Assembly: GCA_043228905.1 (NCBI GenBank)
Contig: JBHGNT010000002.1
Location: forward strand, 5,952,001 to 6,016,000
DNA: 64,000 nucleotides
Reading direction: 5' to 3'
DNA from: Azolla caroliniana
Taxonomy: Eukaryota > Plantae > Polypodiophyta
The notes beneath the pieces were generated by a model. It was not told where the DNA came from. It made no database searches and was given only the letters and a program-made list of their open reading frames with translations. The translations under genes and the position numbers were made by a program. Shown in pieces: positions 2,919 to 63,225 of the stretch (its first letter is position 1; each line of letters opens with the position of its first letter).

Positions 2919-3010
2919 GGCTAAAGGAATAGCTTATGTGCAACAACAAACAAACGTATTTACACATTCTATATAGTGTAAGTGACATCTAGTGCATATA
3001 TTATAACATC

Positions 3011-4312
3011 ATGGAAGAGAAGGGTTTGCAAAATTTCCTAATTTTGTCAATTCTACTTTTTTCGACCACCTTAGTAATTCATGTGCCGTTAACGACCTAT
3101 GCTATCTCCCCTTCTTCACTTCTATATCCAAATCCAATTATAGCTCCAATTCTTGCTTCAACTCCAACAACAATTCCGACAATTCCACCAACTCCAGCAA
3201 TTCCAGCACTTCCACCAATTCCATCAATTCCAACAATTGCAACAATTCCAACAATTCCAACAATCCCACCAATTCCAACAATTCCACCAATTCCAACAAT
3301 CCCAACAATTCCAACAGTTCCAACAGTTTCAGCACTTCCAACAATTCCACCAATTCCACCAATTCCAACAATTCCAACAATTCCAACAATCCCAACAGTA
3401 CCAACTGTTCCAGCTGTTCCAACTGTCCCAACAGTTCCAACAGTTCCAACGGTCCCAACAGTCCCAACGGTCCCAACTGTTCCAACAGTCCCAACAGTCC
3501 CAACAGTTCCAACAGTCCCAACAATTCCAACAGTTCCAACAGTTCCAACAGTTTCAACACTTCCACCAATTCCACCAATTCCAACAATTCCAACAATTCC
3601 ACCAGTTCCAACAGTTCCAACAATTCCAACAATTCCACCAATTCCAACAATTCCAACAATTCCAACAGTTCCAACAGTTTCAGCACTTCCAACAATTCCA
3701 CCAATTCCAACAATTCCAACAATTCCACCAATTCCAACAATTCCAACAATTCCACCAGTTCCAACAATTCCAACAATTCCAACAATTCCAACAATTCCAC
3801 CAGTTCCAACAATTCCACCAACTCCAACAATTCCAACAATTCCACCAGTTCCAACAATTCCACCAACTCCAACAATTCCAACAATTCCACCAGTTCCAAC
3901 AATTCCAACAATTCCAACAGTTCCAACAGTTCCAACAGTTCCAACAGTTTCAGCACTTCCAACAATTCCACCAATTCCAACAATTCCAACAATTCCACCA
4001 ATTCCAACAATTCCACCAATTCCAACAATTCCAACAATTCCAACAATTCCAACAATTCCACCAGTTCCAACAATTCCAACAATTCCAACAATTCCACCAA
4101 TTCCAACAATTCCAACAGTTCCAACAGTTTCAGCACTTCCAACAATTCCACCAATTCCAACAATTCCAACAATTCCACCAGTTCCAACAATTCCAACAAT
4201 TCCAACAATTCCAACAATTCCACCTATTCCAACAATTCCACCAGTTCCAACAATTCCAACAATTCCACCAACTCCAACAATTCCAACCACTCCAGCACCA
4301 ACTAATGCATAA
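3011..4312 (+). CDS. Secreted proline/threonine-rich tandem-repeat protein (HRGP/PRP-like), 433 aa, intronless
   Basis: Hydrophobic signal-peptide-like N-terminus (NFLILSILLFSTTLVIHVPLTTYA), then (P-T-I/V)n. Good ATG context, upstream TATA box, AATAAA at 4393-4398. Confidence 0.8.
   Translation: MEEKGLQNFLILSILLFSTTLVIHVPLTTYAISPSSLLYPNPIIAPILASTPTTIPTIPPTPAIPALPPIPSIPTIATIPTIPTIPPIPTIPPIPTIPTIPTVPTVSALPTIPPIPPIPTIPTIPTIPTVPTVPAVPTVPTVPTVPTVPTVPTVPTVPTVPTVPTVPTVPTIPTVPTVPTVSTLPPIPPIPTIPTIPPVPTVPTIPTIPPIPTIPTIPTVPTVSALPTIPPIPTIPTIPPIPTIPTIPPVPTIPTIPTIPTIPPVPTIPPTPTIPTIPPVPTIPPTPTIPTIPPVPTIPTIPTVPTVPTVPTVSALPTIPPIPTIPTIPPIPTIPPIPTIPTIPTIPTIPPVPTIPTIPTIPPIPTIPTVPTVSALPTIPPIPTIPTIPPVPTIPTIPTIPTIPPIPTIPPVPTIPTIPPTPTIPTTPAPTNA
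3160..4300 (+). repeat. 9-bp coding minisatellite (CCAACAATT/CCAACAGTT/CCACCAATT) with higher-order units
   Basis: Directly visible. GTTTCAGCACTT (VSAL) interruptions recur near 3326, 3677, 3947 and 4127, with a VSTL variant at 3551. Confidence 0.97.
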
Positions 4313-5229
4313 ATTATAACACATTTCAATTCCATGGTTTATCATGCTCCATAACGCACTATGCAATTCATATTGTATCAATTGCATGTCTAAATAAAGT
4401 CATATCAATAAATTAATAAATATATGAGTATGAAAAACAATGTCTTTTGATTTTTACTATGATACAACAAAATGTGTTATATGGTGTAGTCATTGCTTAA
4501 TGTGTTCTAAGTATTTCTTAAGTGTGTTTCCTCTAAAAGAAAAATGTCCAAGATATTCACTACAGTGTTAGGCTCATAAAGTTAGAAACAATTTGTTATC
4601 CATATATATGTTTGTGTATTGATTCTTCTCTCATTCTTACTCCTTGTATTCTTATATGTATCCCCTCTACGGGATGAATTGACAAGATCCGAAACGGAGT
4701 AACCTCCAAGATTTGGAAACAATGTAACTTCCAAGATCCGAAACGGCACAACTGTTCTAATATCTAATTCAATACTAGAACTTACAATATTATTTAATAA
4801 ATAATGCTAGGAATGATCATACCATTGACACATGACACACTCGTGAGCATGGATATGAAGTCCATCCGAACTCATAGAATCACAAAAATGATTCTATGAT
4901 TCAAGCTACCAAAACATTTGATTCGACATGATCATTGATGTAATAAACATTGTCCTTGAGGTTTCTTCCTTGGAACTTGAGAATAGGTTTGGTGGTATCT
5001 TTTTTAGTACGGCTTCAATCAGTAGTTGTTAACTCATTTTTCGACCACTTTAGCTCAGATTGTCAATGACTCATACAATCCAATATGGTCTTGCCCATTG
5101 CAATTTGAGTTTTCCTGTTTTAATTCCATTATTGTTTGGAAATCTAATATTGCCTTGCCCACTTTAGTTCGTTGTCACGCTTTCATCGATGCCTTTGAGC
5201 TGGTGCCTCCAAAATAGCTTTTACCTTAT

Positions 5230-7230
5230 TTGGATATGCCACAATGCCCTCTTCACTGATGATATGGCCAAGTAATGCACCACTAGTTACGTGGAGCACG
5301 CATTTTGCGAGATTAAGACTTTAGTGGACTGTCCGACACTTCTCTAAGCATAGCTGAAGATGATCCAAGTGGTTAGTTCATTTTTTATACACGACGAAAT
5401 CATCTAAAAATACCTGCAGAAAGCCTGGAATGTACTCGCCAAAAATGTCCATGATTATTCTTTGAAACATCGCTAGTGCAATATTCGATCTAAACATCAT
5501 TACTTAAAACGACAAATACTCCCCATTCCATCACATATGTCATCTTTTCCTGATCAGCTGGGTGCATCAGGATCGAATTATACCTGCTAAAGCTGTTGAT
5601 GAAACTGTACACCTCGTGTCCGACTATGGCATCTTGTAACCCGTCAATAAGTGGTAACAGAAATGCATCTGTAATTATCGTCGCGTTCAATTTCCTCTAA
5701 TCCACGCATACCTGGATATTCCCATTTTTCTTTGGCACCATGACAATTGGGCTTAGCCATGTTGGTTGCTTGACCGGCCAAATAAAGTCGACTCCCAACA
5801 ATTTGTCAATCTCCTCTTTTACTTTCGCAACGTAATTTGGGTTCATCCGGTACCATCTTTGCTATAATGGATTCGCATCCTTACTCAAGTGGATCCGATC
5901 CTAATAAAATTTCGGCACGAGCCCCTTCATGTCTTCGTACGACCAAGCAAAGACATCCTTGTACGCCGTCAACAATTCGATCATCATCGTCGTCTCTTCT
6001 AGCTTCATTTTCTTCACAATCTACAACGGTCGAGATGCTATGACGGCTTTCGGATACGGCTCCTGTAATTCTTTGTCCATCTCTGTGTCCTTCCCGAACA
6101 CGTTGTCGTGCCTTTCGGCGATAGGTTGTTGCATGAGTCGTGTGGAAAATGCTAAGGTTTTAGATTAGGATGAGGAGGAGGAGATTTAGATCGATAGGAT
6201 TAAGAACAAATTGAAAGAGAGAGAAATAGGAAATTCGTTAATTCAATGAGTATAGTGTATTATAATAATCAACTCTTTTTAACCCTAATAAATTCCCAAA
6301 GATTCAACAACCAATTACATTTTGCTCCCCTCCTTATATAGTGATAGGAGAGGCTAACTATAGCTTACCACATGGCAAGCATCATGCTTTTTCTTCTAAC
6401 TAAAGTGTTCATGCACACTAGATGTGCATGAGTAGCTTTTTCCTAGAATAATTTCTCTAACTATAGTACTCATGCTTTTTCTAAGTATGTAATTCATGCT
6501 TTTTCTCACTATAGTACTCATGCACCCAATATCCTAGTTGTGCATGACTATGTTTCCTAGAATATATGAGAATAAACTTTTGTACAGCTAAAATCTATTA
6601 TATTAATATTCATGATGTGTTAGTACAATCGTAAGGCATGGGATTTTAACATGGAGGTACAGGGTTTGAATCTTGCCCTGTGCATGTAACATACATTTTT
6701 AATATTTTCTTCTCTTTCTACATACTTATTCAATTAGGTACTCTGTACGCATTTCACATAGTGTGTGAAGTACACTACGACAATGTATGGTGTGACCATC
6801 TCCACCACATCGATTTTGAACAATGAAACTATCTTAGGATTTTCTTCGAGGTACCGGTCCACCTCGTTGGCTAGCCCTTCCATTATATGAATTCCCTCAA
6901 CGTAAAGTGGGGTTTTGTTGCCACGTGATCCTACGTTGGCAATTGAACCTTTGTCTTCCCTTGGTTGAAGCTAATTACGTTTTTTTGCCAATTCTATTTT
7001 ATGTGCGCCGTGTGCAACCAATGTCGACATAACCGTAGTGGGTAAGCTCCCAATGCATCCAATTGTAGAACCACCACCGAAATTTGGAATGGGTATTGTT
7101 GAGAGACAACCTCAACATGAGCGGAATGGTTAAAGCCTAGCAGACTAGATTGGTTGAAGACGCCAACAGTCGAGTCAACGAAGGAGTGAGTGATGCAGCA
7201 CCGGATTCGACACATAGAGATTTCCAAGCC
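5230..7230 (-). pseudogene. Degenerate Gypsy pol remnant (protease to RT) related to element D
   Basis: TDAFLLPLIDGLQDAIVGHEVYSF and QEKMTYVMEWGVFV match D's RT. AYPLRLCRHWLHTAHIK matches D's AYPLLLGRPWLKTANIK. Split by a solo LTR. Confidence 0.8.
6104..6782 (-). mobile_element. Solo LTR of the element-E family
   Basis: Ends TGTCGTGCCTTTCGGCG...TACACTACGACA are the reverse complement of the E LTR termini. Flanks are ACGT and ATGT (4-bp TSD with one C>T change). Confidence 0.85.
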
Positions 7231-7426: not shown

Positions 7427-10400
7427 TGTCGCGAAGATGCGCGCGTGTGTAGCTCGAACGGGACCACCGGGGTCTCTGACTAGCAAGGACGTTTACCAAG
7501 TTATCGAGAAACAATGTTACCTTGACAAGATCAAAAGATTGATGATTATAAGAAGTAGAATAAGAAGAATCAAAGATGAAAGAAGATGAACAATAGAAGT
7601 ATAATTAGAAGAAGAATTTTATATTGATGATGACGATGGTGATGGTGATTATCACCAATTGACCCCCCCAATACTCAAGCCCAACTAGAGGCTTTTATAG
7701 GTCTCTCCATGCTTGTGACATGCACAAAACCATGGGCTAAAACCATGGTTTTGTGTACACGGTTTTGACTTTTTGTTACCTGTGAAATACTGAATATGAA
7801 AAGAAAATATACGAAATGTAAAGCATGTAGTAGTAGCTTTAGTGGTATGATAATTGTTTTTTATCTTAGACGTGCAAGGTTCAAATCCTACTTGCAACCC
7901 TCAAGATGCACTCAGTGCCATCATGTACTAGGTTTATTTATTATTATTTTCACTTTTACAAGTATTTGTGTAATGTGCATGTATCCTCAAATTTTCATTT
8001 TTTCTCGAATTAAACACGCCACATCACGACATCCACCCCCACCAAACTGCACATCCTCTGGCATGTGCCAAGAAGGAAAAGAGTGATGTGGTGGGGCCAA
8101 AGGTTGTCAACATTCAATTTGCTCATTTCTTGTGCCTTGCCCGCACTGTCTTTGTCCCTCCCTTTTGAGCTCGTCCATTCCTTCCAACCGAACCATCATT
8201 GTCAGCCGATCCACCATATCATTCTCTCGCACTTCCCAATGCTATGACCGGTTGACATGCCCCCCTTGGCCCCTCCTCAGCATAACCTTTCACAATTTTT
8301 GTATGTGCCACATTCATCCCGTCTATCTCCTTGGTCAAGAAACTTTGATCCTTCATTCTTTCTCGTCCCCTGCTTGCCTTCACAAGACCTCATTCGAATG
8401 TCGATGTTGACTACCCATTGTAGTTCCTTCAAGCGCATGCTCATCTGGGGGTCTCTAAGAGACCATATTGCATGCCTCTCTTTCATCCATTTGTTGTGGT
8501 AAACTCTCGCATTTGAGTTGATCATCGTACCTTTGATCTTCACACTAGTGTCCTCCCTCATGTTAGAAGACATGATCACTTTCCGAGGTACACCTTTCAA
8601 ATCCTCTTGGCTTGCTTCGCTGTCATTGTCCATTGTCACACTTTCTTTGGCCTCTTTGTTGTGCACATTTGCTTTCGTCGTTGTGCTTCGTTTGGACTCT
8701 TCATCACACACACTGGCTTCATTCTTCGCTTCCTCATAGCCACCTTCCATCTCTGTGGTCTAATGTTGGCTCTCGGGCGCTGCCGAGGTCTCTAGAACAA
8801 GTGTGGAGGAATCCTCTCCATGGTCCTTGCTCGTTCTTGCCATCTTTGGGCCAATGTCATTGTCTATGTTTCCATCATGTGCATCAGCTCTGACCTTCGC
8901 TTCCTCTGTCGCTTGGGTCCCACGTTAATTCTCGGATGCAACTGCCCAAGTCTCTAGAACAAGTGTGGAGGATTCCATACGCCTTTGGACGATCACCTTT
9001 GCCATGTTGTTCATAGCCACCTCCTTGATGTCGTTTTTCGTGGTTACCTCCTTAATCATGTGGGCCTCACACTCTTTATCCTCCTTTATCGTGCAAGGTT
9101 CTATTAGGCTTGCTCCTTCACCACCCGACGTTTCGAACATGACGCGTGTTCTGAAAGATTCTTCGTCCCTTGGACTGGCGTTTGTGTCCTCGATTCATTG
9201 GTTTCATCCTTCCAAGATGAGAAGATGATTTGTTCTGCATTTTCTCTCCTGTGGTACCGCCGTACCGAACTTGAGCCTTTGAATCCACCACTTCCTTAAT
9301 TTGCATTTGTGGAGAGGTCTCTTCTTCCTCAACCATTGTTCGCCTCAGTTTTTGTCCCTTTTGAAGTTTCTCTTGAGCCTCACTTGCGCCTTTAAGTTCA
9401 TGAATGCCTCTTTCATAAAGACTTCTATGTTGAGCATTGTCGAACCTTCCCTCTTCGAGCTTGTTTCCTTCGGTGGTGGCATGTTGCTGCATCTTGTCCT
9501 CCTTCTATCGTCCCTCATCGGCTGTGACATTGTCAACAAGATTCCTATCCTCCTCTTGTCATGTCGTTGGCTTTTCACTTCGGCCCAATTTTCAGTGAGG
9601 CCATTCAGACCATCGTCGTCCTCGAGTTGGACTCCAATGGCCGTCCTTTTCTTCCGATCAATCGACTTGACGAACATTAAGACTTTATTCATCCCCACCA
9701 ATCCTTGTTCCCGCTCCGAGAGTTGAGCGAACCAACACTCAAACTCAATGAATGCATGCATAGCACTCTGATGGGTCTTCCTCGATGACACCCATTGGTC
9801 AAACTTGTATAGACCTCGTCGCTTCGGCTCTTCATGATCATATGCCTCTCGTAAAGCTTCTTCGAAGGACACCCACGAATCGTGAGCTTTTTGATGCTCT
9901 TTCATATCTTTGCAGATTGGTTCAGCCACCACTCGACAAAAGTACTCTAGCCTCATTGCTTCATTTACACATCTTGAATCCATTTCGGCATTGTAGGCCT
10001 CTAGAAAATTTTGGACTTTGCCTCCGTCGAAACAACCGACTTGCTCAACCATGCTTTCAATGGCTTGTTGGGCCGCATCTCGTCTTTTCCCTTCTCTTGA
10101 AAAATCCATTATCATCTTTGACATTGCCTCCATGAGCGATTCCTCGTCCATCTTCATCCTCCTCTGCCGCTCTTCACGTCGGGTTCACGAGAAGATGTCG
10201 CGAAGATGCGTGTGCGTGTGTCGCTCGAACGGGACCACCGGGGTCTCTGACCAGGGAGGACGTTTACCAAGTTATCGAGAAACAATGTTACCCTTGACAA
10301 GATCAAAAGATTGATGATTATAAGAAGTACAATAAGAAGAATCAAAGATGAAAGAAGATGAACAATAGAAGTATAATTATAAGAAGAATTTTATATTGAT

Positions 10401-10859
10401 GATGATGATGACGATGGTGATTATCACCTATTGACCCCCCCATACTCAAGCCCACCTAGAGAATTTTATAGGTCTCTCCATGCTTGTGACATGCACAAAA
10501 CCATGGGCTAAAAACATGGTTTTGTGCACACGGTTTTGCTTATGACATGCACAAAACCATGGGCTTAAAACCATGGTTTTGTGTACACGGTTTTGACTGT
10601 TTGTTACCTATGAAATAATGAATATGAAAAGAAAATATACAAAATGTAAAGCATGTAGTAGTAGCTTTAGTGGTATGATAATTGTTTTTTGTCTTAGACG
10701 TGCAAGGTTCAAATCCTACTTGCAACCCTCAATATGCACTCAGTGCCATCATGTCCTAGGTTTATTTATTATTATTTTCACTTTTACAAGTATTTGTGTA
10801 ATGTGCATGTGTCCTCAATTTTTCACTTTTTCTCGCATTAAACACACCACATCACAACA
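7427..10859 (-). mobile_element. Element F: non-autonomous gag-only LTR retroelement
   Basis: Direct repeats at 7427-8031 and 10196-10859 (the latter has an internal ~55-bp duplication); TSD ACGG on both sides. tRNA-Trp-type PBS at 10174-10190 with one mismatch; G-rich PPT-like tract at 8032-8044 on the minus strand. No RT or integrase. Confidence 0.88.
9345..10157 (-). pseudogene. Gag-like ORF of element F, continuing in broken frames to about 8277
   Basis: Clear homology to the E ORF (FEEALREAYD, FDQWVSSRKTH, VLMFVKSIDRK, LEDDDGLNGLTENW). The FDG motif near the N-terminus is typical of retrotransposon gag. Confidence 0.75.
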
Positions 10860-13429: not shown

Positions 13430-13652
13430 TCTCTAAGCTATTCTATAGGAACCTATAAATAAGCGCATACGTGTATTCTCAAATCAATTCGAATCAACAC
13501 CAGTCTTTAGCTCTCATTACATATCTTGTATCCATTCTCTTTCTTTCTCTATCTTATACATCCATTCTTCTCTTAGTATTTGGTTCCTTTCTTCTCGTGT
13601 TCTCTAATATCCTTCTTCCATCACTCTACCTTTTATCCTTGGTTCTGACAGT

Positions 13653-13659
13653 TTGATTC

Positions 13660-13664
<5 letters not shown>
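13653..13664 (+). promoter_or_regulatory. Self-priming PBS of element A
   Basis: TTGATTCGAATT is the exact reverse complement of LTR 13486-13497, which starts 32 bp after the TATAAATA at 13454. Confidence 0.85.
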
Positions 13665-51279: not shown

Positions 51280-53638
51280 AATAAAGCCTCTTTGCGTATC
51301 TGCTCCGATTCTATTTCATTTAACTTATTCGTTGCTTGGATACGAAGTGTCGGAATTTGAAATTCGATCGGCATAACGGCTTCGAGTCCGAATGCCATTC
51401 GGAAAGGTGTTGATTTAATGGATGTTTTGTACGAAGTACGATATGCCCATAATGCACTATTTAACTTTTGATCCCAATCAGTACGATTTTCATTCACTAT
51501 CTTCTTTAAAATTGTTTGAATTGTTTTATTTGTCGATTCTGCCAATCCATTAGCTTGGGGATAGTAAGGCGTACTTTTCTTATGAACTACGGCATAGTAA
51601 TTGGTTAATTCGTTAATTAACTTGTTAATAAAATGAGTGCCTTGATCGCTTACCAATTCTATTGGGCAACCGAATCGACACCATATATTCTCATACAGGA
51701 ATTTTGCTGTGGATGCTGCTGTATTGTCCCTGAGAGCTTTTGCTTCAACCCATTTTGTGCAATAGTCAGTCGCAATTATGATATATCGATTACCGGTTCT
51801 TGCAGCTGCTGGTTTGAATGGGCCAACAAAATCTAAGCCCCATTTCTGAAATGGCTCAAGAGGTAAAACCGGTTGAAAAGGCATTCGATCCTTTTCGGTT
51901 GGTTGCCCCATTCTTTGACACAAATCGCATTTCTTACAGTATTCGTTAGCATCTTTCATCACCGTTGGCCACCATAACCCGCTATTCCATATTTTTCTGG
52001 CTGTTGCTTCTCCTGCGTAATGACCGCCAGCAATTCCACAATGTGACTCTGTTAATATGGCTGATTTTTCAAATTTTCGTACTGCCCTTCGCCATATTCC
52101 ATCCGCTCCTTTATGATACAACATGTCATTAAAGAAACAAAAATTCCGACTTCGTACTGCAATTCTTTTTCTTTCATCTGTCGACATGTGTTCGGCCGGA
52201 ATTCCTGTTGATAGAAATATCGTCATTTCGGAAATCCATTCATCCTCTTTTTCCTCATTCACTTCATGTGCTTTTACTGCCTCAACCCGAAATAATTGAG
52301 TATCTGGAAAATCATCTTTAACCCCAACCGCTTCTTCTCCAGACTCAAGCCGACTGAGATAGTCAGCAATCGCGTGCTGTGCTCCTGGTCGATGTATAAT
52401 GTCGAATTCAAACTCTTGAAGCAATAACGTCCATCGGGCTAACTTGCCTGTCAATTCTTGTTTGGAAACTAGATACAGTAAAGCCGAATGATCCACATGA
52501 AATGTAAATTTCTTACCCAAAAGGTAATGTCGAAATTTGTTCACACTATAAATCATTCCCAAAGCTTCTCTTTCGGTTGTTGAATAGTTTCTTTCGGCCG
52601 ACGAAAGTTTCCTATTGGCATAGTATACCGGCCTATACCAGTTTGGTTCGGATAATTGCATTAAAGCACTGCCTATGGCAATGTCCGACGCATCGACGAA
52701 AACATGAAATGGTTTGTTCCAGTCCGGTGGTTGAACTACCGGAACCTTCGTCAGCATCTTCTTGAGACATTCGTATGCATCTTGTTCTATACTTGTCCAT
52801 ATAAAAGGAACTTTGTGTACTGGTGTGTGTAACGGAATAGCAATGTCTGCTAGATATCTCATCATTCTACTGTGCCACCGAATTTGACCCAAAAATCTAC
52901 TTAGAGCTTTAGCATTTGTTGGTGGTGTTGCCTCAATAATTGCTTTAACTTTGTCTGGGTCCACTGCAATCCCTTCTTGACTGACAATATGCCCAAGTAA
53001 TGTACCACTCATTACTCCGAATGCGCATTTGGCTGGATTTAAACTAAGACGCCCTTTTCGACATTTTTCTAAACATAGCCGTAAATGCTCAAAATGATCA
53101 GCTTTCCGACTATATAGTGCAAAATCATCTAAAAACACCTGCATGAAGGCTGGAATATATTCCCCGAATATTTCCTGTATTACCCGCTGAAATGTAGCTG
53201 GAGCTGTTTTTAAACCGAACATCATGACTACTGCCACAAAGACACCCCATTCTGTGACGAAAGCTGTCTTTTCCTGATCTTCCGGATTCATCCGTACTTG
53301 GTTGTACGCACTGAACCCATCCAAGAAACTATAAATTTCATGTCCCGCTACTGCATCTAATATTCCATCTGTGAATGGCAACGGAAACGCATCCGTAATT
53401 GTCGCTGCATTCAATTTTCTGTAATCCACACATACGCGAATTTTCCCATTCTTTTTCGGGACTACTACTATCGGACTCAGCCATGTTGATTTTTTGACGG
53501 GTCGAATAAATCCTACTTTTAAGAGTTTATCGATTTCTTCTTTTACTTTCATAGCATAATTCGGATTCAACCTGTACCTGCGTTGTTGTACTGGCTTTGC
53601 ATCTTTATGCAAATTGATTTGATGTTGACAAAAAGCGG
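51280..53638 (-). pseudogene. Element D RT-RNase H-integrase (open frame, cut by E and C3)
   Basis: RVCVDYR, FLDD, FVDASD, WGLDFVGP and VSDQGTHF motifs. Confidence 0.93.
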
Positions 53639-56600
53639 TGTCGTAGTGTATTTTGTACACTACGTGAAAAACGTATATAGTATTAGATTCAATAAAAAAT
53701 GAAGAAATAGAAGAAAATAGCAAAATAAATGGAACATGCATAGGGCAAGATTCGAACCTTGCACCTCCATGTTAATAATGTAATGTCTTACCATTACACT
53801 AGCATTTCATTAGTGTTAAAGCATAGATGTCCCACATAGAAAGGTAAATTCACGCTAGGATAAACATTAGAAAAACGCATAACAAAAGAAAAAGCTACAC
53901 ATACACATCTAGCGTGCATGATAAAAAACGCACAAGTTAGAAAAAGCATGATCACTTTAGATAAAGCATATAGTCTATCTATAGGAAAAGCATGGGGTCT
54001 ATAGTTAGAGAAAAAGCATGGATTACTAAGACTTCCTCATCACTACATAAGGATGGGAAGCACAATGTAATTGTGTGTGAAAAATATTTGGAAACTGGAT
54101 ATGTTTCTAAAAAACACCAATTAATAAACTATACTCGTGGGATTCACGAGAATTCTATATCATTCTCTTTCAACCGAAGTTTATATTCTTATATTCATAT
54201 TGATTAATCTAATACAATACACTCGTGGGATTCACGAGTTTGCTATAACTCTTTCTTACAACATATTTATATTCTTATTAGCCTTAAAACTCTCCTCTTC
54301 CTAGTCCAAAACCCCAGCGGTTCCCACCTGACTCACGCAACGATCTGGCGCCGAAAGGCACGACACAGTTGGTGAACCCGACGTGAAGATGGGTGGCAAG
54401 GAGATGGAGAATCAACAAGAGGCGATGAACATGATGATGATGATGTTCGAGCGGATGCTACAAGAACAACGAGCGATGTCGGAGATCACGGGGGCAGTAA
54501 AGCGGCTCGTACAACGAAACGGGGAATTCAACGGTAAGGGTGTGTCACGCTACCTACGTGAATATAAGGCGGAGATGATGCAATATCGGATACCGGAAGG
54601 ATTGCAAGTGATATCCTTTAACCGGGTGGCCTCGGACGAACTACAAGAGAGAATCCACAAGATACAACAACAAAACTCGACATGGGAGTCCTTTGAAGAA
54701 GCTTTACGAGAGGCATATGACTACGAGAGATCGAAGGGACGAGATCGACGAGAATTCGACGAATGGGTGGCGTCGGAGAAGACTCACCGAAGTGCAACGC
54801 AAGCGTTCCTAGAGTTCGAGCATCGTTTTGCTCGACTCTCGGAGCGGGAACGAAGATTGGTGGGAGGAGATAAAGTCTTAATGTTCGTAAGATCGATCGA
54901 TCGGAAAGAAAGGATGGACATCGGGATCGAACTCGAAGATGATGACGGTGCGAACGGTCTTACCGAGGATTGGGCCAAAGTCGAAAGGGTATGCCGAAGA
55001 CATGATGAAAGGAAGCTGAGAATCTCGTCAACAACGACATGGCCCATGAAGGATGGTCGATTGAGGAAAAACGATGAAGCCAATATGAAGGCCGAAATAC
55101 AACATGATGGTACCACGGGAGAAAGAGTGGAACAAGACACCCACTCGTCTTGTGAAAGAACGATGGCGAAGGATAAGGCCGATAATTCAAGTGTAGAAGG
55201 AAATTTCGGGATACAAGTGCCCGAGACATCGGGTCAAAAAGGGGTAAGCATAATAGATGTTTGCATAATTGATGCAGATAAAGAGTGTGAAGCGGATGTG
55301 ATTAAGGAGGTAGCCACAAAAGACGAAATCGAATCAGAGGTGGCTATGGACGAATCAATGGCGGATTGCCATATCGAGACTTCCCCACCACTGATTCTAG
55401 AGACTCCGGCGGTTGCGTTCGAAAGGCAACGTGAGACCGAAGAGACGGAAAGTGGCGGAGAGAAAACAAAGGTCGAAGTCAATGCATACGACGGAAAGAT
55501 AGCCGAGAATATGGCTATGGGTGAAACAATGGAGGATGATAATACCGAGGATTCCTACCCACTAATTCTAGAGACTTCGGCAGTTGTGTCCGAGAACCAA
55601 CGTGAGACCAGAGAGACGGGAGGTGGCAGCAAGAAAGGTAAAGTCGGAAGCCGGTTCGGATGGAAGGTGATCCGGATGGGATTCCGATCCGAAAGAAAGC
55701 CGAACCGGGTAAAAGAGGATTCGACCGAAAGACGATACAAACGAAAGCCGAACCGGGCAAATGAGGATTCAGCCGAAAGACGACCCGAAAGAAAGCCGAC
55801 CCGAAAAGGGGTCGACTCGGTCAAAACCGATCGACCAAGTCTGACTTGGCCGAACGCGAATATGGATGGAAGCCGACCTAGCCGAAAGCCAATCGGACGA
55901 GACGGATCCGGAAAGAAGCTAATCCGACTCAATCGGAGGTTGGATCGGTCGAGGCTGGTGAAAACGAGGAAAAGAAAGCCAACCGAAACCAAAACCGATA
56001 GATCGAAACCGGGCCGGAAGGAGACCGACTCAATCGAAACCGAACAACCAATTCCGATTCGGCCGAATACGAATCCGATCGGAAGCCGATCAAACCGAAA
56101 GTTGATCAGACAAGAGCGATCCGGAAAAAAATCAAGGTTGATGAAGACAACAAAGAGGCCAGTAAAAGACACTACCACGAATGACAAGGGCCAAGAATAT
56201 GACGAGAGAGAACAAAGAATATGGTGGATCGGATGGCGACAATGGTTCGGGTGGAAAGAATGGGTCAACTCAAAATGGAGAGACAAAGTTGACATAGCGG
56301 GACAAACGGAGGATGAAGGGGAGACAACGAGAATCGGCAACTTCGGCACATACCGGAGGATGTGTGGGTTCGGAGGGGGCGAGTGTCGTATGTTGCGATG
56401 ATGAACCCGACTCTATGCTTAGGCATTGCCGGGAGTCGGGGGTGCACGAACCCGTACTCATGGAGCACACGAGCTACTTCTTGGAACAAGGCGTCATCAC
56501 TGCCCTATGTCCGATACGCTGTCGTAGTGTATTTCGTACACTACGTGAAAAAGTAAAAATAATATAACCGATTTAATTACATATAAATAAATAAAATAAG

Positions 56601-57241
56601 AATATCAAGATATTTATCACGTGCATAGGGCAAGATTCGAACCTTGTACCTCCACGTAGCCAAACCTCAACTTTACCATTATGCTACCTTATCTTTAGTG
56701 TTCTATAAATAGATTTAATAACTATAAGTGCTTTATTTGCGCCTACCTTTATTAAAAGGTAAATCGTGCATTTTTAGAGTGCGTGAATATTTTATAGAAA
56801 AACGCAAGCAACTAAAAAGTGACTCATGCACATCTAGCGTGCATGAGCACTATATTTAGCAAATAAAAGCAAGGATTAGAAAAGCATCACATGCACATTT
56901 AGTGTGCATGAACATATGAGAAAAAGCATGTAGCTATGCTTAGTCTCTCCCATCACTATATAAGGATGGGGAGCACATTGTAGTTTTTGTTGGTTATTTT
57001 TCTATAATGATCAATCAATCTAAAATATTCGTGGGATTCACGAATTTGCTAAAATAATTCTCTCTTACTACCTAAATATTGACTAAATATACTAAACTCG
57101 TGGGATTCACGAGATTCTTATCTTATAACTCTTTATACCTATTCTTTACTAGCCTTATTTGTATTTTTCTTTCTCCTAGTCCAAAACCCCGGTGGTTCCC
57201 ACCCGACTCACGCAAACGATCCGGAGCCGAAAGGCACGACA
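53639..57241 (+). mobile_element. Element E: gag-only LTR-bounded insertion with divergent LTRs
   Basis: TGTCG...CGACA repeats at 53639-54365 and 56520-57241; TSD GCGG; tRNA-Trp PBS TGGTGAACCCGACGTGA at 54370-54386. The host frame GLDPA|FCQHQ is restored on removal. Confidence 0.9.
54389..56401 (+). CDS. Gag-like protein of E with acidic middle and Arg/Lys-rich C-terminal region
   Basis: About 670-aa ORF starting right after the PBS; homologous to the F ORF; no pol domains. Confidence 0.72.
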   Translation: MGGKEMENQQEAMNMMMMMFERMLQEQRAMSEITGAVKRLVQRNGEFNGKGVSRYLREYKAEMMQYRIPEGLQVISFNRVASDELQERIHKIQQQNSTWESFEEALREAYDYERSKGRDRREFDEWVASEKTHRSATQAFLEFEHRFARLSERERRLVGGDKVLMFVRSIDRKERMDIGIELEDDDGANGLTEDWAKVERVCRRHDERKLRISSTTTWPMKDGRLRKNDEANMKAEIQHDGTTGERVEQDTHSSCERTMAKDKADNSSVEGNFGIQVPETSGQKGVSIIDVCIIDADKECEADVIKEVATKDEIESEVAMDESMADCHIETSPPLILETPAVAFERQRETEETESGGEKTKVEVNAYDGKIAENMAMGETMEDDNTEDSYPLILETSAVVSENQRETRETGGGSKKGKVGSRFGWKVIRMGFRSERKPNRVKEDSTERRYKRKPNRANEDSAERRPERKPTRKGVDSVKTDRPSLTWPNANMDGSRPSRKPIGRDGSGKKLIRLNRRLDRSRLVKTRKRKPTETKTDRSKPGRKETDSIETEQPIPIRPNTNPIGSRSNRKLIRQERSGKKSRLMKTTKRPVKDTTTNDKGQEYDEREQRIWWIGWRQWFGWKEWVNSKWRDKVDIAGQTEDEGETTRIGNFGTYRRMCGFGGGECRMLR

Positions 57242-60533: not shown

Positions 60534-62797
60534 ATGGACCCGGCAAAAGTCCAAACAATATTGGAATGGAAACCCCCATGCTCAGTTCGGGATGTCCAGT
60601 GTTTCCTCGGATTTGCGAACTTCTATCGCAAATTCATACATAATTATTCAACCATTGTGTTGCCCCTTACTCAACTCACCAAGAAAAATCAAGCATTTTT
60701 TTGGAGTATCGAAGCGGACAAGGCTTTTACGCAGCTGAAAGAGGCATTCACATCAGCACCCATCCTAGCACATATTGATCCTGAAAAGCCATTTACTATT
60801 GAGGCGGATGCATCAGACTTTGCATTGGGGAGTATCCTATCGCAACCAGGCGAGGACGGGCAGATACATCCAGTCGCGTTTCACTCGAGAAAATTTACTG
60901 TTTCGGAGATAAACTATGGGTGCATGACAAGGAGTTCTAGCTGTGGTCGACTCGTTCGAGCAATGGCATCATTTTCTAGAAGGATCACCTCATCAGATTA
61001 TCATTTATAGTGATCACAAAAATTTCACATATTTTCAAACAGCTCGAGTATTAAATAGACGACAAGCTCGGTGGGCCCAATTTCTAACGCGTTTCAATTT
61101 CAAGATCATTTTTTGCCCCGGAAAACAACAAGGGAAAGCAGATGCTCTGTCTCGGCGTTCATATCTAGCACTTTGACCTGGAGATCTGTCCTTTGACAAT
61201 CAAAAGCAAACTCTCCTCGGGCCATCAAAGCTACAGGTAACAACAATTTATGCCACACCACTTGATTCTACCCTTCTTGACACTATTCGGCAACAACTTC
61301 ATTCGCATGATTTTGCTAAGGATGTCTTAGCCCACTGTGGTTCAAGTCGTCCATCTTGCTCCACATTGCCAGGGTCATCTCAACATTATCAGGACTTCAA
61401 GTGGCAAGATGGTTTACTCTTCTACAAGAATCTCCTTTACGTCCCCGACGGATCACCCCGACTTCAAGTGTTGGAACATTGTCATGATGCCCCCATGGCT
61501 GGACATTTTGGTATTTCCAAGACCATTGAGCTGGTGAAACGTTCGTTTTGGTGGCCTCACTTGCAAAAATTTGTCGAAGATTATGTTTGCACTTGTGACA
61601 CCTGCTGTCGCGCCAAAATACCCCAGCATCACCCTTATGGCTTACTACAACCATTACCCCCTCCCAACAAGCCATGGCAGTCTATTTCTATGGATTTCAT
61701 TACCAATCTGCCACCTTCCAAAGGCTTTGATACTATTTTAACAGTAGTGGATCGGTTCACCAAGATGGCACATTTTGTACCATGTGTAAAGACCATCAAT
61801 AGTGAAGAAACTGCAGATCTCATTATGCGTGAAGTGTTTCGCCATCATGGTCTCCTGAATGATATTATTAGCGATCGAGGTCCTCAATTTATCTCACACT
61901 TTTGGAAGCACCTATGGGCAGGCCTCAAAATCTCTTGCAAACTCTCTTCAGCTTATCATCCACAAACTGACGGACAAACAGAGCGCACAAATCAAACGCT
62001 CGAGCAATATCTTGGATGTTTCATTAGTTATCAACAAGATGATTGGAGTAAAATTTTACATCTTGCCGAGTTTGCATACAACAACACGGTCCACTCTTCT
62101 ACCAAAGTTACACCTTTCTTTGCCTACACCGGCAACCACCCTCGATGGTGTATACTGGATCTTCCCGAGGTGTCGCGAAACCCTAGTGCGGTGCATCATC
62201 TCCACCGACTACAACAAATCCAGTTCGAGTTATCGTCACATCTTCAGAAAGTGCAAGCACACCATAAGACCAATGCCGATCGACATCGTCTTAAGTCTCC
62301 GTTTAAGGTTGGTGACCGTGTATGGTTGCTTCGTCGTCACATCAAGACTACCCGACCGTGTGCTAAGCTTGACTATCAACGCTTAGGTCCTTTTGTCATC
62401 ACGGCGCAGATTAATGATGCAACATTTTGTTTTAACCTTCCTACACATGCGGCTTCACCTTGTCTTTCATAGCTCTCTTTTGGAACCTTGCCACACCTCT
62501 TTAATTCCTAATCGTGTCGTGCCACCACCGCCTTCTGTACAACTTGTGGACGGCCCCGAATATGAGGTAGCTGCTATTCTCGATTCTAAGATTGTGCGCA
62601 ATAAGCTTTATTACCTAGTTGATTGGCTTGGTTATCCTCCGAGTGATCGCACTTGGGAACCCATCGATAACGTTTGTAATGTTGAAGCTTTGGTCAACGA
62701 CTTCCATCGTCACTATCCAAACAAGCCCGGCCAAACAATGTTAACGCCGACTTCCACTCGGCGTTCTCGAAGGAGGGATAGTGTCATGAACACATGA
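60534..62797 (+). pseudogene. Element A RT end, RNase H, integrase and chromodomain
   Basis: FLGFANFYR, IEADASD, ISMDFIT, SDRGPQF; chromodomain EYEVAAILDS...YYLVDWLGY...TWEP. Confidence 0.93.
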
Positions 62798-63225
62798 CCA
62801 TTATGGCGTCACCTGGACTTGAACCTCGAACCATGTAATTCATACTTGAAAACCTCAACCATTAAGATAGTTTATTGCTATATGAAACAATAAAAGCTAC
62901 TTCTTATATTACATTGATTATTGTAAAAACTCTAGATTATTCTAGAATGTTCTAGAATGTCCTAGAGCATTCTAGGTCTAGAACATTCTAGAACATTCTA
63001 GAAATCTCTAAGCTATTCTATGGGAACCTATAAATAAGCGCATACATGTATTCTCAAATCAATTCGAATCAACACCAGTCTTTAGCTCTCATTACATATC
63101 TTATATCCATTCTCTTTCTTTCTCTATCTTATACATCCATTCTTCTCTTAGTATTTAATTCCTTTCTTCTCGTGTTCTCTAATATCCTTCTTCCATCACT
63201 CTATCTTTTATCCTTGGTTCTGACA
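62782..63225 (+). repeat. Element A 3' LTR (444 bp)
   Basis: TGTCA...TGACA; the last ~220 bp match 13430-13650. Confidence 0.93.
62930..63005 (+). promoter_or_regulatory. Heat-shock-element-like array in the A LTR
   Basis: Alternating nGAAn/nTTCn units (TTCTAGAATGTTCTAGAA, GAACATTCTAGAACATTCTAGAA) just upstream of TATAAATA. Confidence 0.6.

What the first reader, a model, noticed from the sequence alone, without database searches (positions are those of the whole stretch)
62804..62876. Chromovirus A also carries an antisense tRNA-like unit ending in CCA
Seen: the minus strand reads CTATCTTAATGGTTGAGG...GGTTCAAGTCCAGGTGACGCCA, about 20 bp inside the LTR start. This gives an A-box with one mismatch (62859-62869), a B-box (62815-62825) and a CCA end. 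A is self-priming and needs no tRNA, and its LTR is otherwise unlike those of E and F. Inference: a convergent or exchanged module, supporting a shared function.
Basis: partly seen in the sequence, partly recalled or inferred. Interest (0 to 1): 0.75.

Follow-up and report, generated by a model that had tools for sequence, protein, structure and literature searches.

The report
Backwards tRNA promoter in retrotransposon ends
Many families of jumping genes in this plant genome, from two distant lineages, keep the two promoter boxes of a tRNA gene back to front at the outer edge of their terminal repeats while the tRNA shape has decayed, so the boxes likely recruit the host's tRNA-gene machinery, possibly to shield the element's own promoter from silencing.

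Summary
The A-box (62869-62859) and B-box (62825-62815) are real, at tRNA spacing, antisense in U3 of the 3' LTR (62782-63225) of a self-priming Tcn1-like chromovirus (25.3 bits, 0/200 shuffles). The CCA is tRNA position 71-73, not a CCA tail, and is not conserved. The unit is not a one-off: 23 of 28 chromodomain-anchored LTRs of other families carry it antisense (0 of 28 sense), as do non-chromovirus LTRs (RT about 30% identical). Copia LTRs, 18 distant chromoviruses and published SM-Tcn1 lack it. Across 17 families tRNA-invariant bases are kept and stems are not, so it is a promoter relic under apparent selection, not a tRNA. No donor is proven (3' arm leans to Val-AAC, post hoc). Best reading: a TFIIIC-binding type 2 promoter that likely keeps U3 open or acts as a barrier 104-257 bp upstream of the Pol II TATA; no expression or binding data. 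Closest known: Helenus TRIMs (sense, non-autonomous). The scan noted similar LTR boxes in two probably fungal genomes.

The parts
62782..63225 (+). 3' LTR of chromovirus A (444 bp, TG..CA)
   Evidence: Ends fixed by alignment to 30 genomic copies; at least 1419 first-look candidates in the genome
62769..62781 (+). Polypurine tract
   Evidence: Sequence directly; shared by 3'-LTR copies
62804..62876 (-). tRNA-derived unit, antisense in U3 (tRNA positions 1-73 by box spacing)
   Evidence: no fold
62859..62869 (-). A-box (T8..G19), one mismatch at position 10
   Evidence: identical in 53 of 57 copies
62815..62825 (-). B-box (positions 52-62)
   Evidence: strict in 47 of 57 copies
62830..62833 (-). 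Variable-loop-like bases 44-47; G46 and T47 invariant in 17 of 17 families though not part of the scoring matrix
62804..62806 (-). CCA = positions 71-73, not a CCA tail; limited to the A subgroup
62849..62852 (-). T4 run between the boxes, a possible weak Pol III stop
   Evidence: present in 3 of 17 families
63029..63036 (+). Pol II TATA-like box, 160 bp from the A-box T8
   Evidence: motif match; function inferred
63061..63072 (+). Predicted start of R, the self-primer
   Evidence: 12-nt complement of 13653-13664
13651..13664 (+). Self-priming PBS after the 5' LTR
13430..13650 (+). Remnant of A's 5' LTR; the first 223 bp, with the unit, are missing in this copy
62561..62713 (+). Group I chromodomain with aromatic residues Y, W, Y
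   Evidence: Pfam Chromo E=8.9e-15; translation
53737..53803 (-). Same kind of unit in a non-chromovirus LTR starting near 53638, antisense to that LTR
   Evidence: 28.2 bits, 0/200
56622..56693 (-). Same kind of unit in the LTR starting at 56520, antisense
   Evidence: 26.2 bits, 0/200
7827..7899 (+). Same kind of unit in a minus-strand LTR (second copy 10655-10727), antisense
   Evidence: 24.9 bits, 0/200
6621..6679 (+). Weaker unit in a minus-strand LTR ending at 6782, antisense
   Evidence: 13.3 bits, 1/200; E=0.005

Best explanation
The unit is a tRNA-derived pair of RNA polymerase III promoter boxes, kept back to front at the outer edge of U3, that likely binds TFIIIC as DNA and would thereby keep the LTR open or shield the element's Pol II promoter from silencing that spreads in from the flank. 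Shown: boxes at tRNA spacing, fixed antisense orientation upstream of the TATA, presence in many diverged families of two distant Ty3/gypsy lineages, loss of all tRNA stems. Inferred: (1) origin from a tRNA gene or tRNA-SINE, gained more than once; (2) purifying selection on the boxes; (3) TFIIIC binding; (4) TFIIIB would load on the TATA side and deplete nucleosomes there; (5) the antisense orientation would spare the Pol II promoter from read-through. Because U3 of the 3' LTR templates both new LTRs, every new insertion would carry the unit at its 5' edge.
For: Unit antisense at <=3/200 shuffles in 23 of 28 scanned LTRs picked by chromodomain, not by box; sense 0 of 28. Present in 4 of 5 close metagenome relatives at 0/200, fifth at 5/200. 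Across 17 families T8 16/17, G18 16/17, G19 17/17, G53 T54 T55 A58 17/17, C56 16/17, C61 15/17, and the unscored G46, T47 17/17. Stems no better than arm-swap controls (T 803, acceptor 557, anticodon 1588, D 1318 of 2000), while host tRNAs give 0/2000 for each. Spacer varies 31-40 nt. One exact A+B pattern hits 4179 places against 7 for the reversed control. TATA-like box 104-257 bp from T8 where one was found. No T4 after the B-box inside the LTR in 11 of 11 families and CAA near +1 in 1 of 17 units versus 7 of 14 tRNA genes, which weakly favours binding over a defined transcript. tDNA and B-box barriers are shown in fission yeast (PMC2040200, abstract and passages); group I chromodomains bind H3K9me per PMC6317226 (passage).
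Against: No binding, chromatin or RNA data. Fission yeast tDNA barriers work in either orientation, so a barrier alone does not explain the fixed orientation. One family in the same clade (L115, L116, L118, L120) has a decayed or no unit, and copia and two other gypsy LTRs of the window have none, so it is not required. In inserted A copies the B-box cytosines in CG/CHG context decay at 85-102 per 1000, no slower than elsewhere, so most copies are not protected. Box conservation is partly built in by the matrix, and 6 of the 17 families were found through box patterns. Families share ancestry and are not independent. Distance to the TATA is not fixed.
Confidence: 0.45

Rival explanations
1. 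The boxes drive real antisense Pol III transcription: outward into the flank from the 5' LTR, and across the PPT into the chromodomain and integrase region from the 3' LTR, giving RNA that would limit or tune the element's own activity.
For: Both boxes are kept, not only B; orientation is fixed; upstream DNA is AT-rich with a TATA-like word in 6 of 17 units versus 6 of 14 tRNA genes. Cassandra is transcribed from its LTR Pol III promoter (PMC10886601, text).
Against: No terminator in the LTR; in the window the first T4 lies 762 nt past the B-box; A has a T4 between its boxes; CAA at +1 mostly missing.
Confidence: 0.22
2. It is a passenger: a SINE or tRNA fragment once inserted in ancestral LTRs and now decaying without function.
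Against: Boxes and G46/T47 stay fixed while the sequence between and around them has fallen to shuffle level between clades whose integrase-chromodomain regions are only 51-62% identical to A; same orientation and region in two lineages with about 30% RT identity.
Confidence: 0.13
3. TFIIIC bound at the cDNA ends or at inserted LTRs steers integration: it tethers the integration complex to Pol III-rich chromatin, or makes LTRs landing pads for other elements.
Against: In non-chromovirus LTRs the B-box is 110-145 bp inside. Only 6 of 60 A copies were interrupted or rearranged in the LTR, at six different places: no cluster, low power.
Confidence: 0.1
4. It works as RNA: the genomic RNA's U3 is complementary to a tRNA and pairs with it or its fragments to help strand transfer or to act as a decoy, as reported for HIV-1 U3-R and tRNA-Lys3.
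For: The sense strand is the complement of a tRNA-like sequence; the HIV-1 case is cited in a review (PMC6468702, passages; the primary paper was not held). A-group 3' arm matches host tRNA-Val(AAC) at 8-9 of 11.
Against: A is self-priming and has no tRNA primer to bridge; only bases common to all tRNAs are kept, whole-unit similarity to any one host tRNA is at chance (214/500); no complement of a CCA tail.
Confidence: 0.07
5. Chance motif match in AT-rich DNA.
For: No Rfam or ARAGORN call; best whole-LTR shuffle reached 23.3 of 25.3 bits.
Against: 0/200 shuffles, recurrence at the same place and strand in 23 of 28 unselected LTRs, 4179 versus 7 pattern hits.
Confidence: 0.02

Closest known systems
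Helenus / TRIMp3 (Kojima 2024, PMC10886601; parts 1-4 of 6 of the text, passages and supplement passages read)
   Same: tRNA-derived sequence in LTRs, conserved around boxes A and B, unlikely to be a working tRNA, not the primer; one plant family (Selaginella).
   Different: Helenus are short non-autonomous TRIMs; in the LTRs shown in the supplement passage the unit is on the sense strand. Here the carriers are protein-coding Ty3/gypsy families with a TATA-like box and the unit is antisense. Kojima argues autonomous partners must use Pol II, but also remarks that 'not a few' Repbase LTRs resemble part of a tRNA, without analysing them.
Cassandra TRIM (as described in PMC10886601)
   Same: Internal Pol III promoter carried in both LTRs of a plant retroelement.
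   Different: 5S-derived type 1 promoter, sense, makes the element's own RNA, non-autonomous.
Tcn1 clade chromoviruses, SM-Tcn1 (PMC2864245 passages and supplement S3; PMC6317226 passages)
   Same: Group I chromodomain (41 of 56 residues identical to A, counted by eye), same R-start and self-PBS layout, 440-bp LTR.
   Different: SM-Tcn1's U3 is a tandem array with no reverse B-box core by eye; no tRNA-like U3 unit is mentioned in the passages found.
tDNA and B-box chromatin barriers of Schizosaccharomyces pombe (PMC2040200, abstract and passages)
   Same: A and B boxes or B boxes alone, bound by TFIIIC, placed between silent and active chromatin.
   Different: Host chromosomal elements, shown by experiment, orientation-independent; here mobile, decayed in structure, binding untested.
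tRNA-Lys3-like sequence in HIV-1 U3-R (seen only as a reference title and one sentence in PMC6468702)
   Same: tRNA-related sequence in U3 of an autonomous LTR element.
   Different: Acts by pairing with the primer tRNA; A has no tRNA primer and keeps promoter bases, not isotype-specific ones.

Membership tests
Functional tRNA gene | Cloverleaf with paired acceptor, D, anticodon and T stems | tested here: not met
Functional tRNA gene | A and B boxes at 30-33 nt spacing | tested here: met
   33 nt
Type 2 internal Pol III promoter | A-box and B-box consensus above chance | tested here: met
   25.3 bits, 0/200; host tRNAs score 14.9-37.0
Type 2 internal Pol III promoter | TFIIIC binding and Pol III initiation | not testable with these tools
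   No ChIP data; no RNA holder listed
Type 2 internal Pol III promoter | T-run terminator shortly downstream | tested here: not met
   None in the LTR in 11 of 11 families (10-58 nt left); first T4 at +762 in the window
Helenus (TRIMp3) | Short non-autonomous TRIM without coding capacity | tested here: not met
   Family A is 5.8 kb with gag, RT, integrase, chromodomain; copies with open frames above 1200 codons
Helenus (TRIMp3) | tRNA-derived sequence in the LTR conserved at boxes A and B | tested here: met
Helenus (TRIMp3) | Unit on the strand that can transcribe the element (sense, as in the supplement LTRs seen) | tested here: not met
   Antisense in 23 of 28, sense in 0 of 28
Tcn1 chromovirus clade | Group I chromodomain with aromatic cage | tested here: met
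Tcn1 chromovirus clade | Self-priming instead of a tRNA PBS | tested here: met
   12-nt complement between R start and PBS; predicted, not assayed
Tcn1 chromovirus clade | Groups with reference Tcn1 elements in an RT/integrase tree | tested here: inconclusive
   No reference was in the tree; 41/56 chromodomain identity to SM-Tcn1 by eye
tRNA-derived SINE insertion | Own target-site duplication and tail around the unit; free-standing family | tested here: inconclusive
   No tail or duplication seen in A; dispersed composite repeats share the unit only with the L104/L114 group, direction of transfer unknown
tDNA/B-box chromatin barrier | Blocks spread of heterochromatin in a reporter, TFIIIC-dependent | not testable with these tools
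   Needs experiment

The most novel reading that the evidence does not exclude
Autonomous Ty3/gypsy lineages in a non-seed land plant have repeatedly captured tRNA-type Pol III promoters, in one fixed antisense orientation at the U3 edge, and use host TFIIIC as a built-in anti-silencing barrier for their Pol II promoter; thousands of such sites would then make LTRs the main TFIIIC landscape of the genome.
Probability: 0.35. Interest if true: 0.8.

Novelty: new variant of a known kind. Interest (0 to 1): 0.6.

Why it matters
Pol III promoters in LTRs are described for short non-autonomous elements, where they make the element's RNA. Here they sit backwards in protein-coding elements that have a TATA-like box, so they need another job. 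If they bind TFIIIC, it would be a self-defence or self-control device of retrotransposons gained more than once, a test case for tDNA-type barriers in plants, and a source of thousands of ectopic TFIIIC sites (4179 matches to one exact pattern). It also warns that box-only tRNA scans of such genomes will be swamped by LTRs.

Tried and rejected
tRNA gene or mimic: ARAGORN, Rfam (window; 20 loci), folding and a structured model gave no tRNA fold; a few sister units score higher with structure than without (L099 25.1 vs 20.1 bits, L104 23.8 vs 20.3) and may be younger captures. CCA tail: rejected by position count and lack of conservation. Donor: whole-unit test against 40 host tRNA representatives at chance for A (214/500); a post hoc test of the 11 bases after the B-box picks Val(AAC) in all five A-group units (6-113 of 2000); the tRNA set lacks several isotypes, and the Ala genes were dropped by the parser. 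Shifted T-arm hairpin: not above arm-swap control (163/2000). Within-family selection: family A is too young; changes are mostly private. Methylation footprint at the B-box: none. Landing pad: 6 of 60 copies interrupted or rearranged, no cluster, low power. Expression: no RNA holder listed; four contig-only runs of uncertain kind cover the LTR and say nothing on strand or start. The first matrix scan used spacers of 29-36; I widened to 28-45 after seeing the L096 family. L111 and L113 were not scanned by matrix (no LTR start found; L111 has an antisense hit at E=0.021); 18 of 41 chromodomain-bearing metagenome loci had no usable LTR start, and LTR starts of the distant ones were guessed by pattern. 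The tree left out L102, L116, L123, L113. Literature searches found no description of antisense Pol III boxes in autonomous moss or Tcn1 LTRs; subscription journals and Repbase entries were not searched, and five DOC supplements of PMC2864245 could not be read.

Full report
Setting. The window is a nest of LTR retrotransposons in a 523-Mb genome of 1503 contigs. Element A runs 13430-63225 in four collinear pieces, 97-99% identical to a full-length copy elsewhere, split by nested insertions. It has gag, integrase and a group I chromodomain. Its 3' LTR is 62782-63225; the 5' LTR has lost its first 223 bp, so this copy holds the unit once. The predicted start of R (63061-63072) is complementary to the 12 bases after the 5' LTR, which supports self-priming. 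These features match the Tcn1 clade, which PMC6317226 (passages) places in mosses and club-mosses and predicts to self-prime; the chromodomain shares 41 of 56 residues with SM-Tcn1 by eye. The host is therefore likely a non-seed land plant (inference); no reference Tcn1 was placed in a tree.

The observation. The quoted minus-strand text is there. A-box 62869-62859 and B-box 62825-62815 are 33 nt apart, as in host tRNA genes. A matrix from 26 host box pairs (nuclear and organelle-type, some near-duplicates) gives 25.3 bits, 0 of 200 shuffles of the LTR, and 0.9 bits on the sense strand. The five best matrix hits in the window (24.9-28.2 bits; next 17.8) all lie in LTRs. A sequence-only model of 21 host tRNAs finds the unit at E=0.0034, the same model with structure only at E=0.34. 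ARAGORN, Rfam and folding give nothing. Counted from the B-box the CCA is positions 71-73, so it is the end of the acceptor arm, not the added tail; most other families lack it.

Within family A. A 22-letter pattern covering B-box and 3' arm hits 288 places, control 0. Of 60 3' LTRs picked by chromodomain similarity, 57 cover the unit; 47 keep a strict B-box and 53 the identical A-box. The family is young (mostly 95-98% identical to the window copy), so this says little about selection. The two B-box cytosines in CG/CHG context change at 85-102 per 1000, against 26-71 in the rest of the LTR, so inserted copies are not protected from methylation-type decay.

Other chromovirus families. A chromodomain codon pattern that excludes A's own codon gave 588 hits; the first 30 were fetched without regard to the LTR. 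LTR starts were found in 28. The unit is antisense at <=3/200 shuffles in 23 and sense in none; misses are L097, L121 (relatives of positive families), L115, L116, L118, and L120 passes only weakly (8.3 bits). A metagenome search returned 79 loci, 41 with a chromodomain, 23 scannable. Four of five close relatives score 0/200 and the fifth 5/200; none of 18 distant ones (about nine families, starts guessed by pattern) does better than 12/200. A tree of integrase plus chromodomain (50 rows, FastTree, midpoint root) puts the carriers in two clades; a non-carrier (L133) is sister to the second and the decayed family is basal within it. SM-Tcn1, close to A in the chromodomain, has no reverse B-box core in U3 by eye. 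Either the unit was gained more than once or lost more than once.

Non-chromovirus LTRs. Five other LTRs in the window carry it, all antisense (0-1/200); three copia LTRs, the 14663 LTR and the 42186 LTR do not. A further family with a PBS read as tRNA-Trp type (label recalled) has RT, RNase H and integrase, no chromodomain hit, about 30% RT identity to A, and the unit antisense. One exact A+B pattern hits 4179 places against 7 for the reversed control; of the first 30 loci, 24 belong to LTR families by their core sequence, 4 are tRNA genes or share a core with one and 2 are unclassified (part was cut from view, so L265-L272 were assigned).

What is conserved. Across 17 families (11 found by chromodomain, 6 through box patterns; one A-box placed by hand) the fixed bases are those fixed in tRNA genes: T8, G18, G19, G53, T54, T55, C56, A58, C61, plus T20 16/17, A44 15/17, G46 and T47 17/17; the last three were in no matrix or selection pattern and point to tRNA ancestry. 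In 14 families of standard spacing no stem pairs better than arm-swap controls, whereas host tRNAs beat 2000 of 2000 for every stem. Outside the boxes A resembles its near sisters (z 3-8) but not the non-chromovirus units (z -0.7 to 1.1); one of 30 pairs between the second clade and the non-chromovirus group is high (L123-E, z 4.5). No whole-unit donor was found (214/500); the 3' arm of the A group leans to host tRNA-Val(AAC), post hoc. Dispersed non-LTR repeats share the unit with the L104/L114 group, direction unknown.

Mechanism. Kept promoter bases, free spacing and lost stems are what a DNA site for TFIIIC would show (established knowledge of type 2 promoters, recalled). The unit faces outward, between flank and TATA-like box (160 bp in A; 104-257 bp for the main TATA-like match in other families where found). 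There is no T4 after the B-box inside the LTR (11 of 11), A has a T4 between the boxes, the first downstream T4 in the window is 762 nt away, and the CAA seen before 7 of 14 host tRNA genes (its role at plant tRNA starts is recalled) is present in 1 of 17 units. I therefore favour binding that keeps U3 open or blocks spreading silencing (0.45) over productive antisense transcription (0.22), passenger (0.13), integration steering (0.10) or tRNA pairing (0.07). Against it: fission yeast tDNA barriers are orientation-independent (PMC2040200), one family has lost the unit, and nothing here measures binding or RNA.

Known and new. Helenus TRIMs carry tRNA-derived boxes in LTRs but are non-autonomous and sense-oriented (PMC10886601); the paper notes other Repbase LTRs with tRNA-like parts without analysing them. 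Searches, and passages of PMC7466625 on moss elements, showed no description of this arrangement. Earlier unchecked notes of this scan report LTR promoter boxes in two probably fungal genomes; none for this feature turned up in this genome. Verdict: real, widespread, apparently selected; a new variant of a known kind with an untested function; interest 0.6.

Noticed in passing
L075, L080, L364 (also L063, L065, L067, L274): Family A copies with the segment between the R start and the self-PBS, or more, inverted; six break at LTR position 291, the end of the self-primer repeat, suggesting template switching at the self-priming hairpin.
   Followed up: partly
L226, L235, L282-L286: Dispersed non-LTR repeats built of one or two tRNA-like units, sometimes facing each other, sharing the unit of the L104/L114 chromovirus group; SINE, MITE or LTR-derived is unresolved.
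   Followed up: partly
L289:537-609 and 1022-1094: tRNA genes called Val(GAC) by ARAGORN whose 5' part matches the host Ala genes' pattern; three such places in the genome.
   Followed up: no
L295-L297 (about 2940-3150): An LTR family with two antisense A/B units in tandem.
   Followed up: partly
L300:4900-5800: Tandem array of about 260-310-bp monomers made from the start of a unit-bearing LTR, a possible young satellite.
   Followed up: no
window 62941-63002: Palindromic TCTAGAA array in U3 between the unit and the TATA, seen in several chromovirus families; gives a sub-threshold miRNA-family match.
   Followed up: no
SM-Tcn1 record, PMC2864245 supplement S3: By eye it has a complement between the R region and the bases after the 5' LTR like A's, although that paper reported no evidence for self-priming.
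   Followed up: no
L257, L260 (about 1480-1570): A further non-LTR repeat with a tRNA-like head (28.3 bits), possibly a SINE family.
   Followed up: no
G000:C18:8.83-8.85 Mb, C11:16.0 Mb, C16:4.04 Mb, C15:13.09 Mb, C5:17.9-18.0 Mb: Long tandem arrays of tRNA-gene-like units (Ala-pattern, Ile, Lys).
   Followed up: no
window 2993-4338: 9-bp tandem repeat of about 1.3 kb with open frames on both strands.
   Followed up: no
window 13430: The 3' end of a copia internal region joins directly to the middle of A's 5' LTR, with the copia 3' LTR and the first half of A's LTR missing.
   Followed up: no
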